From the IMG/VR virus record IMGVR_UViG_2880389630_000005: 64,000 bases of DNA. One strand, given 5' to 3'. Below are positions 13,410 through 35,912 of this stretch, one piece after another. The translations under genes and the position numbers were made by a program. The notes beneath the pieces were generated by a model. It had not been told where the DNA came from, made no database searches, and saw only the letters and a program-made list of their open reading frames with translations. How positions within the stretch are numbered: the first letter of the stretch is position 1; each line of letters opens with the position of its first letter. Source of the DNA: a virus. Its lineage: Duplodnaviria > Heunggongvirae > Uroviricota > Caudoviricetes.

Positions 13410-13688
13410 ATGAAGATTGAACAAATCGGAATGGCAGCCTTCCGGCAACAGGCTGAAAGCGGTGGCATGGATGAGTTCGTCGTGCAGCGGTTCGGTGGTG
13501 TGTATCACCTCTTCGCTGTGAATCGCCGCGCCGGGGTATCCTATTTTCTACAGGAACGCCGGGGCGATTACAAGACGTGGCTGTCTCTTGACCGTGCCGC
13601 CGCGTTCCTGTCAGGGATTGGCGTTTCACGTTTTACCGTGCGTTTTGAGGATAACAAACATGCTGAAAAAGATGATCGGGGCCATTAA
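13410..13688 (+). CDS. Hypothetical protein
   Basis: 92 aa from ATG 13410; overlaps start of GemA-like gene. Confidence 0.3.
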   Translation: MKIEQIGMAAFRQQAESGGMDEFVVQRFGGVYHLFAVNRRAGVSYFLQERRGDYKTWLSLDRAAAFLSGIGVSRFTVRFEDNKHAEKDDRGH

Positions 13689-14058
13689 AGCTGGTCAGGC
13701 GTATCTGGGGTGGGATGATGCCCTTTATCGCCAGACGCTGGCCCGCCTGACCGGTAAAACCAGCACCACACGCTGCAATCTCGATGAACTGCGCATCATC
13801 CGGGAATACATGCACGAACAGGGATTCCCGCGCAAGGCACCCACCGGTAAAGGTCGCCGCCCTCGTGTTGCAATGAGCAGAAAATCAGTATTATCCAAAA
13901 TTGAAGCGTTGCTGGCTGATGCAGGTCGTTCCTGGGCGTATGCAGAAGGACTGGCATCTCACATGTATAAGCAACATGTGATCGAATGGCTGACGGATGA
14001 ACAGCTTTTTGGAGTGATGGTGGCGCTGGTTAAAGATTCAAGAAGGAGAAATCAATGA
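13660..14058 (+). CDS. GemA-like protein (Mu gp16 family)
   Basis: 132 aa from ATG 13660 with RBS gagga; position just upstream of mor-like gene. Confidence 0.65.
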   Translation: MLKKMIGAIKAGQAYLGWDDALYRQTLARLTGKTSTTRCNLDELRIIREYMHEQGFPRKAPTGKGRRPRVAMSRKSVLSKIEALLADAGRSWAYAEGLASHMYKQHVIEWLTDEQLFGVMVALVKDSRRRNQ

Positions 14059-14568: not shown

Positions 14569-14631
14569 GTGGTCTGTACAGGCGATCATGTATGGCTATA
14601 ATAACAGTAAGTTACTACCGGAGACGCCATC

Positions 14632-15099
14632 ATGCAGACCTTCAGTGAAACAGATCTTCGCGATGCGCAGGCACTGCTGCCCGATTCCGTGCAGCAACTG
14701 ATTAGCGTGATTGGCTTCCCCGCCCTGACCCGGTTAATCCGTTCTTTTGGTGGTGTGACGTTAAGCGGTAAAACCGGCGCACACGCCGAACGCACCGGCG
14801 GTGTCCATGCCCTGTTACATGACGTGCTGACCGAAGACGAAATCAACAAACTGATCCGCTTTCTTGGCGGTGCACCGTTTTACATTCCCCGTTGTGATCA
14901 TGCTTTACGTGCCCTGCGTAACACCCGTTTTATGGCTGATTTACAGCAGCATGTAAAAGGCGGATGCTCACACCGACAGGCGCTGGCACTGCTCTGTCCC
15001 CGTTACGGCATTTCAGACCGGTACGCATGGCAACTGATACACCGACGACAAAAACAGACTTCGCTGAAAAGCCCCACCCAGGTGGGGCTTTTTGATTAA
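14632..15099 (+). CDS. Mor/C-family transcription activator (middle operon regulator-like)
   Basis: 155 aa; FYIPRCD and C-terminal RYGIS...AWQLIHRR resemble Mu Mor (from memory). Confidence 0.65.
   Translation: MQTFSETDLRDAQALLPDSVQQLISVIGFPALTRLIRSFGGVTLSGKTGAHAERTGGVHALLHDVLTEDEINKLIRFLGGAPFYIPRCDHALRALRNTRFMADLQQHVKGGCSHRQALALLCPRYGISDRYAWQLIHRRQKQTSLKSPTQVGLFD
15071..15093 (+). terminator. Rho-independent terminator overlapping the mor-like stop
   Basis: Stem GCCCCACC/GGTGGGGC followed by TTTTT. Confidence 0.65.
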
Positions 15100-15124
15100 T
15101 GGGCCTCAGAAAAAGGAGACACTT

Positions 15125-15403
15125 ATGACCAACTATACGGCACTTGGCGAGTATACGGCCTACTCAGAGCAGGCACGGGATGCTGCCGGACGCCGCTTCG
15201 CTTATATGAAAAACCTGGCCAACCAACTAAACCGAATGGCCGAACAACCGGATATGGTTGTTCAGGAAGAAGCGTTACAGTGTGCCATTGCTGACATCAT
15301 CGCCAGCGAAAACGAGATGCGCGCAGCGATGGAAAAGGCGAACGCCTCTGCTCCGCTTTGTAATAAACCTCTTATTACGCCGGATTCTCTTTCCCGCTTC
15401 TGA
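15125..15403 (+). CDS. Hypothetical protein
   Basis: 92 aa from ATG 15125; RBS aaaaaggaga. Confidence 0.4.
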   Translation: MTNYTALGEYTAYSEQARDAAGRRFAYMKNLANQLNRMAEQPDMVVQEEALQCAIADIIASENEMRAAMEKANASAPLCNKPLITPDSLSRF

Positions 15404-15585
15404 TTTAGCACCCCGCCGCCGCGGGGTGCTGAACTCCCCCAGCAGTACCCACCACACCAGACCGTTTACCCTGTCCACTCAGACCACAAGGCACCTTAAG
15501 GGATAGCGCCCTGCAAAAGGCTTTTGTGCCTTTGACAGGGTGTTATTTACGGGCCGTCAGTGGCTCAGATTTACAGGAGAAACTC

Positions 15586-15978
15586 ATGTCTGAACCCTTA
15601 TCAGGCGGCGGAGCTGTGGCAGTCACCATCGGTGGTGCCAGTGTGTTTGGCCTTCTCACCAATACCGATTTCGGGGTCGTGGTGGGCGCGTTTGCCGGGG
15701 CGCTTTTTGTTGTCACGCAGCAGAAAGAAATCCCGGTATGGCGAATGGCTATTCATCTGCTCGTCGCGTTTGTGGTTGGCGTTCTGGGGGCTGGCGTGGC
15801 TGCGTCACTGATGCAGTGGCTGACCCACTACAACGACAAGCCGCTCGATGCATTGTGTGCGGTCGGTGTCTCGGCGTTATCCATCAAGATACTGACCTTT
15901 CTTTATCAACAGGAAATTTCATCGCTGTTCGGCCTGTTTTCCAGACTGCGCGGCGGAGGGGGTGGAAATGGAAAGTAG
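15586..15978 (+). CDS. Putative holin-like membrane protein
   Basis: 130 aa from ATG 15586 with RBS aggaga; 3-4 predicted TM segments; upstream of endolysin. Confidence 0.5.
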   Translation: MSEPLSGGGAVAVTIGGASVFGLLTNTDFGVVVGAFAGALFVVTQQKEIPVWRMAIHLLVAFVVGVLGAGVAASLMQWLTHYNDKPLDALCAVGVSALSIKILTFLYQQEISSLFGLFSRLRGGGGGNGK

Positions 15979-16264
15979 CCTTGCCGGTATCGTGAACGTC
16001 TGGCTGTGTCTCGCCATTGTGCTGGGGTTGTTTGTGTATCGCCGCCACGGTGCGGCGCATAAACCGATGATTACCTGGCTGGCGTACTGGCTGATGCTCG
16101 GCTACGTCATCATCCCGTTCCGCTGGCTGTCCGGTACATACACGCACTCCAGCTGGCTGGTTGTGGCGCTGAATCTGGTTTTCTGTGCGCTTATCGTGTG
16201 GGCGCACGGGAATTTGTCAAAAATCCTTTCGTTACTGAGGCATCCACATGAAATCAAAAGATAA
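15968..16264 (+). CDS. Small membrane protein (holin/antiholin-like)
   Basis: ~98 aa; three hydrophobic segments; lies between holin-like gene and endolysin. Confidence 0.4.
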   Translation: MESSLAGIVNVWLCLAIVLGLFVYRRHGAAHKPMITWLAYWLMLGYVIIPFRWLSGTYTHSSWLVVALNLVFCALIVWAHGNLSKILSLLRHPHEIKR

Positions 16265-16793
16265 AATTTTTGATGAAGTCCTGGGCAAAGAAGGCGGTTA
16301 TGTCAATCACCCGGATGATAAGGGCGGTCCGACCAAATGGGGCATTACGGAAAAAGTCGCCCGCGCCCACGGATACCGTGGCGATATGCGCGATTTAACC
16401 CGCGAACAGGCGCTGGACATCCTTGAAGCCGATTACTGGTATGGCCCGCGATTTGACCAGATCGCCGCATTATCCCCTGATATTGCCGCAGAGCTGTGTG
16501 ATACCGGTGTGAATATGGGGCCAACCGTGGCGTCCAGAATGCTTCAGCGCTGGCTGAATGTGTTCAATCTGCGCGGCAGGCTGTACCCGGATATGGACGC
16601 AGACGGACGCATCGGGCCTCGTACCATCAGTGCATTGCGCGCCTTCCTGAATAATCGCGGTCAGGACGGTGAACGGGTGATGCTGACGGCCCTGAACTGT
16701 ACGCAGGGGGACCGCTATCTGGAACTGGCGGAGAAACGCGAGGCTAATGAATCGTTTGTTTATGGCTGGCTGAAGGAGCGCGTGGCGATATGA
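16248..16793 (+). CDS. Endolysin, GH108-type muramidase with peptidoglycan-binding domain
   Basis: 181 aa; GGYVNHPDDKGGPTKWGIT N-terminus typical of GH108/PG_binding_3 proteins. Confidence 0.85.
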   Translation: MKSKDKIFDEVLGKEGGYVNHPDDKGGPTKWGITEKVARAHGYRGDMRDLTREQALDILEADYWYGPRFDQIAALSPDIAAELCDTGVNMGPTVASRMLQRWLNVFNLRGRLYPDMDADGRIGPRTISALRAFLNNRGQDGERVMLTALNCTQGDRYLELAEKREANESFVYGWLKERVAI

Positions 16794-23428: not shown

Positions 23429-23583
23429 ATGGCGACAAACGCGCTGTAATCGGCTGTGACGGCATAAACGCCTCACGGATGAGGCATAACAGCACCGCGC
23501 CCCATAAATGCCGTCAGAATCGTTTTTAAAAGGGTTTTAAAAACGGTTTTATTTCCCTTTTTATCCTTTCGCGTTATGGCAGG

Positions 23584-24753
23584 GTGCTGAACACCCTCCA
23601 CAGTACCCCGGCTTCCCCTTCCGTCATCATGCCGCGTATGAAACTGAAAATTGCGGCGTTAAGCCTCGAAATTACTAAAGCAACCCACAGCGAAATCCAG
23701 CTGTTACCGGCAGGCGAGTTCAGCGCGGTGGATGGTCGCCCACATACCGATGAAGTCGAAAGCGGTAAATGGGTGCTGACTGCCGAACTGGCCGCGCAGC
23801 TTGTCGCACAGGTGGCCGCCCGCGCCACGCCTTTTGTCATTGATTACGAACATCAGACGCTGCGCGCCGTAAACAACGGCAAGCCCGCCCCGGCGGCGGG
23901 CTGGTTCAGCCAGGTGGAATGGCGTGAAGGTTCGGGCTTGTATGCCACCGGTGTGGAGTGGACGGAGAACGCGGCGGCCATGATTGCCGCCGGTGAGTAC
24001 AAATTTATTTCCCCGGTATTTGGATACAACCGGCGCGGCGAAGTCATTGAACTGTTACACGCCGCACTGACCAATACCCCGGCGCTGGACGGTATGGACG
24101 CGGTCATGCTGGCTGCGGCCAGCCGTCTGGCGAGTCTGTCAACTGAAACGGAGACCACAACAGTGGATGAAGAACTGTTAAACGATTTGCTGTCCAGTCT
24201 GCGCTGGATGCTTAACCTCCCGGTTACCTCAACGGCGGAAGATATCAAAAACGAGCTGCAAAAGGTCGTTGACATGATTTCGAACGGTCAGGGAACGGCG
24301 GCGGCATCCGTCAGCCTGCTGGCCCTGCTGAATCAGAAAGATGAGCAAATCGCCAGCCTGTCAGCCAGTGCCTATGACCCGTCAAAACACATTTCCCTTG
24401 CTGCCTTCGAAGAACTTCAGGGGCGTTATGCCGCACTGGCGCAACAGTCCGGTGAGGCCGAAGCCGGGACACTGATTCAGGCGGCGCTGTCTGACGGGCG
24501 ACTGCTTCCGGCACAGGAAGACTGGGCGAAAGATTACGCCAGCCGCGATATCAACGGCTTTAAGTCCTGGCTGGAGAACGCACCGAAACTTGTTGCGCTC
24601 AGTCAGACACAGACCGGCGGCAAAGCCCCCAAAACGCCGTCGCCTGCCCCGGCGCAGATTAAAACCGGCGATGACGTCGATGTCGATATCGCCATTTGTT
24701 CAATGATGGGCGTCGATCCAGAGGATGTCGCCCGTTACGCAGGAGATGAGTAA
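23584..24753 (+). CDS. Head maturation protease/scaffold (Mu I-like)
   Basis: Up to 389 aa; true start may be ATG 23629 or 23638; position between G and major head. Confidence 0.8.
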   Translation: MLNTLHSTPASPSVIMPRMKLKIAALSLEITKATHSEIQLLPAGEFSAVDGRPHTDEVESGKWVLTAELAAQLVAQVAARATPFVIDYEHQTLRAVNNGKPAPAAGWFSQVEWREGSGLYATGVEWTENAAAMIAAGEYKFISPVFGYNRRGEVIELLHAALTNTPALDGMDAVMLAAASRLASLSTETETTTVDEELLNDLLSSLRWMLNLPVTSTAEDIKNELQKVVDMISNGQGTAAASVSLLALLNQKDEQIASLSASAYDPSKHISLAAFEELQGRYAALAQQSGEAEAGTLIQAALSDGRLLPAQEDWAKDYASRDINGFKSWLENAPKLVALSQTQTGGKAPKTPSPAPAQIKTGDDVDVDIAICSMMGVDPEDVARYAGDE

Positions 24754-35508: not shown

Positions 35509-35561
35509 GTGCTGAACACCCTCACCTGATTCTGACCTGTCCATGCTGCCAGACTGGCGGC

Positions 35562-35912
35562 ATGGACCAGACGATTTCACCTGCAACCGGCGACTACGAA
35601 CGCCGCCGGATTTATACACTCCATAACGCGGTTTATCTGCGACTGGCGACACCGCTTGGCAGTTACTGGGCGGATGCGTTGCTGGGGTCACGCCTGCACG
35701 AACTGAAGCGGGAAAAAGACGTTTCCCGTGTTCACAGGCTGGCGGCGCAGTATGCCAGCCAGGCACTTCAGCCCCTGCTTGATGACGGGCGGGCAAAATC
35801 CATTACTGTTGACACGAAACCGGGTCAGCGCGGCTGGCTGTTGCTGTTAATCACCGTCACGGATAACGCGGGCACACCGCAGACATTTGAACACCCTGTG
35901 AGGATTATGTAA
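35562..35912 (+). CDS. Baseplate protein (Mu gp46-like)
   Basis: 116 aa; position. Confidence 0.7.
   Translation: MDQTISPATGDYERRRIYTLHNAVYLRLATPLGSYWADALLGSRLHELKREKDVSRVHRLAAQYASQALQPLLDDGRAKSITVDTKPGQRGWLLLLITVTDNAGTPQTFEHPVRIM

What the first reader, a model, noticed from the sequence alone, without database searches (positions are those of the whole stretch)
15404..15432. GC-rich hairpin without a T-tract upstream of the lysis module
GCACCCCGC-CGCC-GCGGGGTGC forms a 9-bp stem but is not followed by a U-run. It lies between the mor-like region and the holin-like gene, where a Mor/C-dependent promoter or an RNA regulatory structure could sit.
Basis: seen in the sequence. Interest (0 to 1): 0.2.

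Follow-up and report, generated by a model that had tools for sequence, protein, structure and literature searches.

The report
Operon-end RNA hairpin beside late promoter
The GC-rich hairpin is real, but it is most likely an ordinary stem-loop that caps the messenger RNA of the last early gene of a Mu-like prophage; the activator-dependent promoter for the lysis genes starts right next to it rather than in it.

Summary
The hairpin exists as described. The core stem is GCACCCCGC-CGCC-GCGGGGTGC at 15408-15429, and it extends to 13 pairs (15404-15433) in RNA. No T-run follows, and it is far more stable than shuffles (z about -5.5). It starts 4 nt after the stop codon of a 92-aa gene that follows the Mor-family activator gene of a Mu-like E. 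coli prophage.

Homologues of that gene from other bacteria carry a stable stem-loop in the same place. The stem sequences are unrelated, none has a T-run, and the wobble pairs work only in + strand RNA. This points to an RNA-level 3'-end structure.

The sequence just downstream is C-rich and G-poor, like Rho-dependent 3' ends in E. coli. My best reading is a protective or terminating stem-loop at the early/late boundary.

The expected Mor/C-type promoter is adjacent:
- The motif TGCTGAAC-N-CCC-N-C begins at 15427.
- It recurs at 23585 and 35510, in front of the head and baseplate operons.
- Each copy has an xAxxxT hexamer at offset +40.

The hairpin overlaps this motif by only 3 nt (7 nt for the extended stem). 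Relatives with a nearly identical activator lack the hairpin's 5' arm, so the hairpin is not needed for the promoter. Overall this is an ordinary feature, of low interest.

The parts
15408..15429 (+). Core hairpin: 9-bp G+C stem GCACCCCGC/GCGGGGTGC with loop CGCC (the finding)
15404..15433 (+). Extended 13-pair RNA helix, which adds A-U and U.G pairs from the flanking TTTA and TGAA
   Evidence: (I12)
15125..15403 (+). 92-aa ORF (phrog_7152, unknown function, predicted two-helix hairpin). Its TGA (15401-3) lies 4 nt before the core stem. It is the last gene before the late promoter.
14632..15099 (+). Mor-family transcription activator gene. It is the only one annotated in the stretch of the near-identical E2348/69 prophage that I fetched.
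15066..15093 (+). Terminator-like hairpin AAAAGCCCCACC-CA-GGTGGGGCTTTTT, lying inside the 3' end of the Mor-family ORF
   Evidence: (I11); not listed by the scan
15427..15444 (+). Proposed activator site of the lysis promoter P1: core TGCTGAACTCCCCC, with the dyad TGCTG-N8-CAGCA. This is about -52 to -35 relative to the predicted start. It overlaps the core stem by 3 nt.
15467..15472 (+). -10-like hexamer TACCCT at offset +40 from the motif. Relatives have TATCTT, TATCCT, TATTCT, GACAAT, CAGTAT or GATACT at the same place, and the A and the final T are invariant.
15479..15479 (+). Predicted transcription start of the lysis operon (inferred, +/- 2 nt)
   Evidence: Inference, using the Mu Pm/Plys geometry (PMC4390567, PMC2582627)
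15430..15509 (+). Untranslated C-rich, G-poor stretch (40% C, 17.5% G) immediately 3' of the hairpin; resembles a Rho loading (rut) site
15501..15549 (+). Long imperfect hairpin in the predicted 107-nt leader of the holin mRNA. One pair changes on both sides in relatives.
15586..15978 (+). Holin gene (Phage_holin_8), first gene of the lysis cassette. It is followed by a second holin (15962-16264) and a GH108 endolysin (16248-16793).
23585..23630 (+). P2: the same motif, TGCTGAACACCCTC, with CATCAT at offset +40. It sits in front of the Mu I-like protease gene (ATG 23638).
35510..35555 (+). P3: the same motif, TGCTGAACACCCTC, with CAGACT at offset +40. It sits in front of the gp46-like baseplate gene (ATG 35562).

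Best explanation
The hairpin acts in + strand RNA as the 3'-end stem-loop of the early transcription unit (the Mor-like gene plus the 92-aa gene) of a Mu-like prophage.

Proposed mechanism, all inferred:
1. RNA polymerase coming from the early operon transcribes past the stop codon at 15401-3, and the stem-loop forms.
2. The untranslated, C-rich and G-poor RNA just downstream (15430-15509) lets Rho load and stop transcription before the holin gene.
3. 3'-to-5' exonucleases trim the RNA back to the stem-loop, which then protects the upstream message.

The result would be a defined, stable 3' end for the early message. It would also insulate the lysis genes from early read-through, so that they fire only from the adjacent activator-dependent late promoter P1 (site 15427-44, -10 at 15467-72, start about 15479).

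Shown here: the structure, its position, its recurrence in relatives, the composition downstream, and the promoter motif. Inferred: Rho action, trimming, and dependence of the promoter on the activator.
For: 1. The structure is real and improbable by chance.

2. It begins 4 nt after the stop of the 92-aa ORF. All genes here are on the + strand.

3. In 10 of 11 lineages of the 92-aa family, the first 50 nt after the stop hold a stem-loop more stable than dinucleotide shuffles (each p <= 0.032; Fisher 8.5e-12, lineages not all independent). The stems are unrelated in sequence:
- window: GCACCCCGC/GCGGGGTGC
- L016 (Enterobacter mori): ATTCCTCCCC/GGGGAGGAAT
- L063: CTCCCTCGGC/GCCGGGGGAG
- L017 (Aeromonas veronii): GGTCACCC/GGGTGGCC
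- L050: TGCGCCCCG/CGGGGCGCA
- L038 group: CTGC[C/T]GGGGGT/ACCCCCAGCAG
- L020 group: GCAGGTACTGCTG/CAGCAGTACCTGC
. None is followed by a T-run.

4. The wobble pairs in L013 (G.U), L017 (U.G) and L063 (U.G) pair only in + strand RNA.

5. Among close relatives all four loop positions vary (CGCC, CGCG, CGCT, CACG, GATA, AATA), while 11 of 13 stem pairs never change.

6. In L017 the hairpin stays next to the stop codon although the promoter motif lies about 140 nt further on. The hairpin therefore belongs to the gene's 3' end, not to the promoter.

7. The downstream 80 nt are 40% C and 17.5% G, the 99.7th percentile of C minus G in the window (GC skew down to -0.52).

8. [quoted passage not shown]

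9. Phage Mu has the same layout. A hairpin directly after the C gene stop (ATAACCGGC-ATCCT-GCCGGTTAT, -16.5 kcal/mol, z -4.8) abuts the Plys region, and the hairpin after mor abuts Pm.
Against: - There are no transcript data, so Rho dependence and the 3' end are inferred.
- C-richness of the top strand is also seen at P2, P3 and Mu Plys. It may therefore be a promoter property rather than a rut site.
- L017 and L050 do not have a C-rich tract after their hairpins.
- Among close homologues there is no pair changed on both sides, and the shuffles do not separate from the observed values. The outermost G-C pair of the window is a T/C mismatch in 5 of 7 variants.
- The 3' arm is also constrained by the promoter motif, so its conservation is ambiguous.
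- In this lineage a terminator-like hairpin with a T-run already lies after the Mor-like gene (15066-93). How much transcription reaches the 92-aa gene is therefore unknown.
- The Klebsiella phage ST405-OXA48phi1.1 has the promoter motif without any upstream hairpin.
Confidence: 0.55

Rival explanations
1. A weak, non-canonical intrinsic terminator or pause hairpin. The stem-loop itself makes some polymerases stop or pause at 15430-15440, without Rho and without a proper U-run.
For: - The stem is very stable: -23.8 kcal/mol for 30 nt.
- It sits at the end of a transcription unit.
- In L016 and L063 the stem is followed by UUGCU, a rudimentary U-rich start.
- In Mu, the equivalent hairpins after mor and after C do carry T-runs.
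Against: - There are only 2 T in the 8 nt after the core stem (TGAACTCC), and the scan does not list it.
- None of the eight independent hairpin designs has acquired a T-run. That is unexpected if intrinsic termination were the selected activity.
- Established knowledge: E. coli intrinsic termination depends strongly on the U-tract.
Confidence: 0.17
2. A DNA-level element of the late promoter: an extra or extended binding site for the Mor-like activator, or for the RNA polymerase alpha C-terminal domain (alpha-CTD), upstream of the core site.
For: - The 3' arm, GGGGTGC, is part of the extended similarity between P1 and P2 (GGGTGCTGAAC).
- Mor and C bind dyad-symmetric elements centred at -43.5, and alpha-CTD binds just upstream of the Mor site in Pm (PMC4390567, PMC2582627).
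- The hairpin covers about -71 to -50.
- In the L020 and L038 groups the hairpin is built from the promoter motif itself.
Against: - P2 and P3 have the motif but no inverted copy of GGGTGC upstream.
- The L038 group has a nearly identical Mor-like protein and core motif, with a different upstream sequence.
- The dyad centres of the three hairpin designs differ: about -61, -48 and -43.5.
- Stems in L016, L063 and L017 share no sequence.
- In L017 the hairpin is about 140 nt away from the motif.
- The wobble pairs would be mismatches in a DNA-symmetry reading.
- The alpha-CTD site in Pm is A/T-rich, whereas this is G/C-rich.
Confidence: 0.1
3. An mRNA stabiliser only. A stem-loop blocks 3' exonucleases after processing or read-through, with no role in stopping transcription. 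Early transcripts would continue into the lysis genes.
For: The structural evidence is the same as for the best explanation. There is no T-run. The hairpin adjoins the stop codon, as intercistronic stabilisers do.
Against: - Unrestrained early read-through into two holin genes and an endolysin gene would risk premature lysis.
- The gap is 182 nt, untranslated and C-rich, which are conditions under which Rho normally acts (established knowledge).
- This reading overlaps largely with the best explanation.
Confidence: 0.13
4. A chance palindrome in G+C-rich intergenic DNA, with no function.
For: There is no covariation among close relatives, and the outer pair is broken in most variants.
Against: - 0 of 200 shuffles fold as well.
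- 0.06 occurrences are expected per window.
- Unrelated hairpins occupy the same position in diverged relatives.
Confidence: 0.05

Closest known systems
[quoted passage not shown]
   Same: A stable stem-loop with no U-run, lying just after a stop codon in an untranslated gap, with C-rich and G-poor sequence immediately downstream.
   Different: Rho dependence and exonuclease trimming have not been shown here. The C-rich tract doubles as the spacer of an activator-dependent promoter.
Phage Mu operon boundaries: the hairpin after mor next to Pm, and the hairpin after C next to Plys
   Same: The hairpin that ends one temporal transcription unit abuts or overlaps the activator site of the next promoter. 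A Mor/C-family activator is present. The promoter has a -10 but no -35, with a conserved element about 40-52 bp upstream of the start.
   Different: - Mu's hairpins are followed by T-runs and have A/T-rich flanks.
- Mu uses two activators (Mor, then C) in three tiers. This prophage shows one Mor-family gene and one motif at all three late promoters.
- The motif (TGCTGAAC-N-CCC) is unlike the Mu Pm and Plys sequences read here.
- The protein is only about 27% identical to Mor, over 78 residues.
Canonical intrinsic (Rho-independent) terminator
   Same: A G+C-rich stem-loop at the end of a gene.
   Different: There is no U-run. An example with a T-run lies 340 nt upstream, at 15066-15093.
REP/BIME-type intergenic palindromes that stabilise upstream mRNA
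   Same: An intergenic G+C-rich palindrome that could block 3' exonucleases.
   Different: It is single-copy in the window, even allowing 3 mismatches, and it belongs to the prophage rather than the host.

Membership tests
Intrinsic (Rho-independent) terminator | G+C-rich stem-loop at the end of a transcription unit | tested here: met
   9-bp G+C stem (13 pairs in RNA), -23.8 kcal/mol, starting 4 nt after a stop codon
Intrinsic (Rho-independent) terminator | Run of U (at least about 5 of 8) directly after the stem | tested here: not met
   The following bases are TGAACTCC (2 T). The scan does not report it. None of the hairpins in relatives has a T-run.
Rho-dependent terminator with protective 3' stem-loop | Stable stem-loop without a U-run at the position of the RNA 3' end | tested here: inconclusive
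   The structure is present and recurs in relatives. The RNA 3' end itself has not been observed.
Rho-dependent terminator with protective 3' stem-loop | C-rich, G-poor, untranslated RNA downstream (rut-like) | tested here: met
   15430-15509 is 40% C and 17.5% G, the 99.7th percentile of the window. There is a 182-nt gap to the next start codon. Caveat: P2, P3 and Mu Plys are also C-rich.
Rho-dependent terminator with protective 3' stem-loop | Termination abolished by bicyclomycin or a rho mutation | not testable with these tools
   This needs an experiment.
Mor/C-type activator-dependent promoter (applied to the adjacent P1, and to the question of whether the hairpin is part of it) | A Mor/C-family activator encoded by the same element | tested here: met
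   14632-15099 matches PF08765 at 29.1 bits (cut-off 24.9) and phrog_836 at E 1e-42
Mor/C-type activator-dependent promoter (applied to the adjacent P1, and to the question of whether the hairpin is part of it) | A conserved element about -52 to -36, replacing the -35, at fixed distance from a -10 hexamer | tested here: met
   The core TGCTGAACNCCCNC has an xAxxxT hexamer at offset +40 (+41 in one) in 8 promoters. CTGAA and the A and T of the hexamer are invariant. No TTGACA-like hexamer lies at the right spacing. The start site is inferred.
Mor/C-type activator-dependent promoter (applied to the adjacent P1, and to the question of whether the hairpin is part of it) | The same element repeated in front of each late operon | tested here: met
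   There are 3 matches on the + strand, at 15427, 23585 and 35510, against 0.32 expected and with 0 of 100 shuffles reaching 3. They precede the lysis, Mu I-like protease and gp46/baseplate J genes.
Mor/C-type activator-dependent promoter (applied to the adjacent P1, and to the question of whether the hairpin is part of it) | Dyad symmetry of the element | tested here: inconclusive
   P1 has a perfect TGCTG-N8-CAGCA. P2 and P3 have only the left half.
Mor/C-type activator-dependent promoter (applied to the adjacent P1, and to the question of whether the hairpin is part of it) | The hairpin's 5' arm and loop are required as part of the site | tested here: not met
   The L038 group has a nearly identical Mor-like protein and core motif without this arm. 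P2 and P3 lack it. In L017 the hairpin is about 140 nt from the motif.
Mor/C-type activator-dependent promoter (applied to the adjacent P1, and to the question of whether the hairpin is part of it) | Transcription depends on the activator | not testable with these tools
   This needs a reporter assay or in vitro transcription.
REP/BIME repeated extragenic palindrome | Many dispersed copies of the same palindrome | tested here: not met
   One copy in 64 kb with up to 3 mismatches allowed
Curated RNA families (Rfam 15) | Match to a covariance model | tested here: not met
   No match covers 15404-15433, even at E <= 10.

The most novel reading that the evidence does not exclude
Three unrelated hairpin designs each use a piece of the conserved late-promoter sequence as one arm:
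- window type: the 3' arm is GGGGTGC, at the promoter's upstream edge;
- L038 type: the arms flank GCTGAAC;
- L020 type: 13-bp arms flank AACTCCCC.

This could reflect selected coupling rather than mere compaction. One possibility is a structure that forms in read-through RNA, or in underwound or replicating DNA, and gates access of the Mor-like activator. That would tie the early-to-late switch to read-through or to replication.
Probability: 0.06. Interest if true: 0.55.

Novelty: new member of a known kind. Interest (0 to 1): 0.2.

Why it matters
By itself the hairpin is an ordinary operon-end structure, so the finding ranks low. Re-examining it does give a usable regulatory map of an uncharacterised Mu-like prophage lineage that occurs in E. 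coli (including EPEC E2348/69), Escherichia albertii, Citrobacter and Enterobacter:
- a single Mor-family activator;
- a new candidate recognition motif (TGCTGAAC-N-CCC, about 40 bp upstream of a weak -10) at three late promoters;
- an early/late boundary marked by a stem-loop without a U-run, followed by a C-rich tract.

If it is confirmed, the boundary would be a compact, testable case of Rho-type insulation of lysis genes next to an activator-dependent promoter.

Tried and rejected
- **Phage collection, DNA searches.** Megablast and blastn with the locus found nothing. Only tblastn with the Mor-like protein found distant isolates.
- **Rfam.** At E <= 10, no hit covers the hairpin.
- **Genome-contig scan with the holin.** It returned a single locus (L002, labelled Vagococcus). 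An IS transposase lies upstream and the 92-aa gene is absent, so it is uninformative.
- **Metagenome scan.** Only 8 loci were returned. P0014's contig had no DNA available.
- **Homologues with no gap.** L019, L064 and L066-L068 carry homologues directly followed by another gene, so there is no intergenic gap to compare.
- **Covariation among close relatives.** No pair is changed on both sides, and the shuffles are uninformative. The support for structure therefore rests on non-homologous replacement between lineages.
- **Hairpin as a Mor-type dyad centred at -43.5.** Rejected. The position 43.5 bp downstream of its centre would need a -10 at 15450-55 (CACCAC), and there is none.
- **A perfect TTGACA at 15532-37.** It has no -10 partner at 16-18 bp.
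- **A Pm-like promoter for the 92-aa gene.** GCTGAA occurs at 15066-71 and TGCTGAAC at L016:2450, with hexamers at offset 30 rather than 40. It is absent in L017 and L063, so I make no claim.
- **Structure of the 92-aa protein.** pLDDT is 91.7 and the fold is a two-helix hairpin. No PDB match reaches E <= 0.001, so there is no hint that it binds the hairpin.
- **Stoddard and Howe 1990 (Mu C-operon transcript ends).** The paper is not held. The Mu comparison therefore rests on the Mu sequence itself.

Full report
**Setting**

The window is E. coli chromosome carrying a Mu-like prophage. The stretch 14600-16300 is 100% identical to strains S13 and R4, and 98% identical to a prophage of EPEC E2348/69. 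The annotation of the E2348/69 copy runs as follows: repressor-like genes, Mu transposase, AAA ATPase, a gp16/GemA-like gene, a Mor-family activator, a hypothetical protein, two holins, a GH108 endolysin, then terminase, portal, the Mu F, G, I and T homologues, and tail genes.

In the window the corresponding genes are:
- GemA-like: 13660-14058
- Mor-family: 14632-15099 (PF08765; phrog_836, E 1e-42)
- 92-aa ORF: 15125-15403 (phrog_7152, function unknown)
- holin: 15586-15978 (PF16931)
- second holin: 15962-16264
- endolysin: 16248-16793 (for the phrog matches)

No isolated phage in the collection matches the locus at the DNA level.

**The observation**

The sequence GCACCCCGC-CGCC-GCGGGGTGC lies at 15408-15429. 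With its flanks it forms a 13-pair RNA helix, 15404-16 with 15421-33. The 30-nt element folds at -23.8 kcal/mol, z -5.85, and no shuffle out of 200 does as well. It is single-copy in the window, with 0.06 occurrences expected. The bases that follow are TGAACTCCCC, so there is no T-run on either strand, and the terminator scan does not call it. The one correction is that the hairpin is separated from the mor-like gene by the 92-aa ORF, and it begins 4 nt after that ORF's TGA (15401-3).

**Where the promoter is**

While testing the dyad TGCTG-N8-CAGCA, which starts at the 3' end of the stem, I found that the core TGCTGAAC-N-CCC-N-C occurs exactly three times in 64 kb. All three are on the + strand, at 15427, 23585 and 35510. 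The expectation is 0.32, and none of 100 shuffles reached three. Each copy sits in front of a late gene block:
- the lysis cassette (P1);
- the Mu I-like protease gene, PF10123 (P2);
- the gp46-like and baseplate J genes (P3).

Each copy has an xAxxxT hexamer at offset +40: TACCCT, CATCAT and CAGACT. In relatives the spacer diverges, but a hexamer stays at the same offset: TATCTT, TATCCT, TATTCT, GACAAT and CAGTAT. In Klebsiella phage ST405-OXA48phi1.1, whose Mor-like protein is 41% identical, the hexamer is GATACT at offset 41. In an alignment of eight such promoters, the invariant columns are CTGAA, three C positions in the motif and one more C in the spacer, and the A and final T of the hexamer.

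If the hexamer is taken as -12 to -7, the core lies at -52 to -39 and the P1 dyad is centred at -43.5. This is the published geometry for Mu:
- The Mor site in Pm is a 16-bp element at -51 to -36, centred at -43.5.
- The C sites in the four late promoters have a -10 and no -35 (PMC4390567, PMC4287176, PMC2582627).

I therefore place a Mor-type late promoter, P1, at 15427-15479. Its dependence on the activator and the exact start are inferred.

**Is the hairpin part of that promoter?**

The evidence says no.
- P2 and P3 have no comparable upstream palindrome.
- A group of viral contigs (L027, L029-L032, L035, L038) has a nearly identical Mor-like protein, holin and core motif. Its middle gene is a 95-aa homologue only 45% identical to the window's, and the sequence upstream of the motif is different.
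- In the Aeromonas veronii relative (L017) the hairpin stays next to the stop codon, while the GCTGAAG motif lies about 140 nt further downstream.

**Does the hairpin recur?**

It does, as a structure rather than as a sequence. I collected homologues of the 92-aa protein. I then folded the first 50 nt after each stop codon against 1000 dinucleotide shuffles. Ten of eleven lineages have a significantly stable stem-loop (p 0.001-0.032; Fisher 8.5e-12, with the caveat that some lineages are related). The stems are unrelated:

| Lineage | 5' arm / 3' arm | Note |
|---|---|---|
| L016, Enterobacter mori | ATTCCTCCCC / GGGGAGGAAT | abuts TGCTGAAG |
| L063 | CTCCCTCGGC / GCCGGGGGAG | abuts TGCTGAAC |
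| L017 | GGTCACCC / GGGTGGCC | next to the stop codon |
| L050 | TGCGCCCCG / CGGGGCGCA | |
| L038 group | CTGC[C/T]GGGGGT / ACCCCCAGCAG | loop is GCTGAAC of the motif |
| L020/L014 group | GCAGGTACTGCTG / CAGCAGTACCTGC | 13 bp, z -8.2, around AACTCCCC |

. None is followed by a T-run. Three lineages contain a wobble pair that would be an A/C mismatch on the other strand (L013, L017, L063), which points to + strand RNA.

Among close homologues of the window type, all four loop positions vary (CGCC, CGCG, CGCT, CACG, GATA, AATA) and 11 of 13 stem pairs never change. However, no pair is changed on both sides, and the outer G-C pair of the window is a mismatch in 5 of 7 variants. Covariation in the strict sense is therefore absent. 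The support comes from repeated, independent replacement.

**Mechanism**

All local genes are on the + strand, and the hairpin follows a stop codon. It is followed by 182 untranslated nt, of which the first 80 are 40% C and 17.5% G. That is the 99.7th percentile of C minus G in the window, with GC skew down to -0.52.

[quoted passage not shown] Those stem-loops protect against PNPase and RNase II, and rut sites lie immediately downstream (PMC6061677). The anatomy here matches that description.

I therefore propose that the hairpin is the 3'-end stem-loop of the early unit (Mor-like gene plus 92-aa gene), and that Rho terminates read-through in the C-rich gap before the holin. On this view the lysis genes are expressed only from P1. 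This is inference.

The main caveats are:
- P2, P3 and Mu Plys are also C-rich.
- L017 and L050 lack a C-rich tract.
- In this lineage a terminator-like hairpin with a T-run already lies at 15066-93, inside the 3' end of the Mor-like ORF. The flux reaching the 92-aa gene is therefore unknown.

**Comparison with Mu**

In the Mu genome, the hairpin GCCGG-TTAAT-CCGGC-TTTTTTT follows mor and lies at Pm. A 12-pair hairpin, ATAACCGGC-ATCCT-GCCGGTTAT, follows the stop of C and abuts the Plys region. The layout is the same: an operon-end hairpin touching the next activator site.

The differences are:
- Mu's hairpins carry T-runs.
- Mu has two activators.
- The motif here is unrelated to the Mu promoter sequences read.
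- The protein here is only about 27% identical to Mor over 78 residues.

Only one Mor-family gene is annotated in the fetched part of the E2348/69 copy, which runs from the left end into the tape measure gene. That, together with one motif serving all three late promoters, suggests a two-tier cascade.

**Verdict**

The hairpin is a new member of a known kind, and I score interest at 0.2.

The least ordinary point is that three independent hairpin designs each borrow late-promoter sequence as one arm. The simplest explanation is compaction of a short gap. A functional coupling is not excluded, but I give it about 6%.

Noticed in passing
window 23585-23640 and 35510-35564: At P2 and P3 the first ATG of the downstream gene lies 7 and 6 nt after the -10-like hexamer. 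These are the Mu I-like protease gene (ATG 23638) and the gp46-like gene (ATG 35562). Neither has a Shine-Dalgarno sequence. The head and baseplate late mRNAs are therefore predicted to be leaderless, whereas P1 has a leader of about 107 nt.
   Followed up: partly
window 15501-15549 (leader of the holin mRNA); L069 680-770: A long imperfect hairpin lies in the predicted holin leader, and one pair changes on both sides in relatives (CCCTG/CAGGG to CCCGG/CCGGG). The 3' part of the leader plus the ribosome-binding site is about 76% identical to the region upstream of 'putative holin' genes in prophages of 161 other E. coli records, DH5alpha among them. There, GGGCC-GCTGGT-GGCCC-TTTTTT looks like a terminator. 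The lysis cassette seems to travel together with its leader.
   Followed up: partly
window 15066-15099: The terminator-like hairpin with a T-run (AAAAGCCCCACC-CA-GGTGGGGCTTTTT) lies inside the coding sequence of the Mor-family protein (stop at 15097-99). It encodes the protein's last residues. The start of the 92-aa gene is only about 30 nt downstream.
   Followed up: partly
window 15065-15100; L016 2450-2500: A GCTGAA or TGCTGAAC motif also lies 50-60 nt before the start of the 92-aa gene, with ATTAAT or TATTTT at offset 30 rather than 40. It is absent in L017 and L063. It may be a second promoter class, or it may be coincidence.
   Followed up: partly
L038 4111-4440 (and L027, L029-L032, L035) versus window 15125-15444: The 92-aa gene behaves as an exchangeable module. 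These contigs keep a nearly identical Mor-like gene and holin, but carry a 95-aa homologue that is 45% identical. The junction falls at the promoter motif, and the hairpin is built differently.
   Followed up: yes
window 15125-15403: The 92-aa protein is predicted with high confidence (pLDDT 91.7) as a two-helix hairpin. It has no informative structural or Pfam match. It is conserved next to Mor-like genes in Escherichia, Citrobacter, Enterobacter and Aeromonas.
   Followed up: partly
L070 2720-2810 (Klebsiella phage ST405-OXA48phi1.1): A distant isolated relative has CACTGAAGCCCCTC with GATACT at offset 41, in front of its GH19 endolysin gene. A hairpin (GACACCAC/GTGGTGTC) lies in the short leader instead of upstream of the motif.
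   Followed up: partly
window 23518-23560: An A/T-rich inverted repeat (AATCGTTTTTAAAA/TTTTAAAAACGGTT) followed by T-rich sequence lies just upstream of P2. It may be the terminator of the lysis and early-head operon.
   Followed up: no
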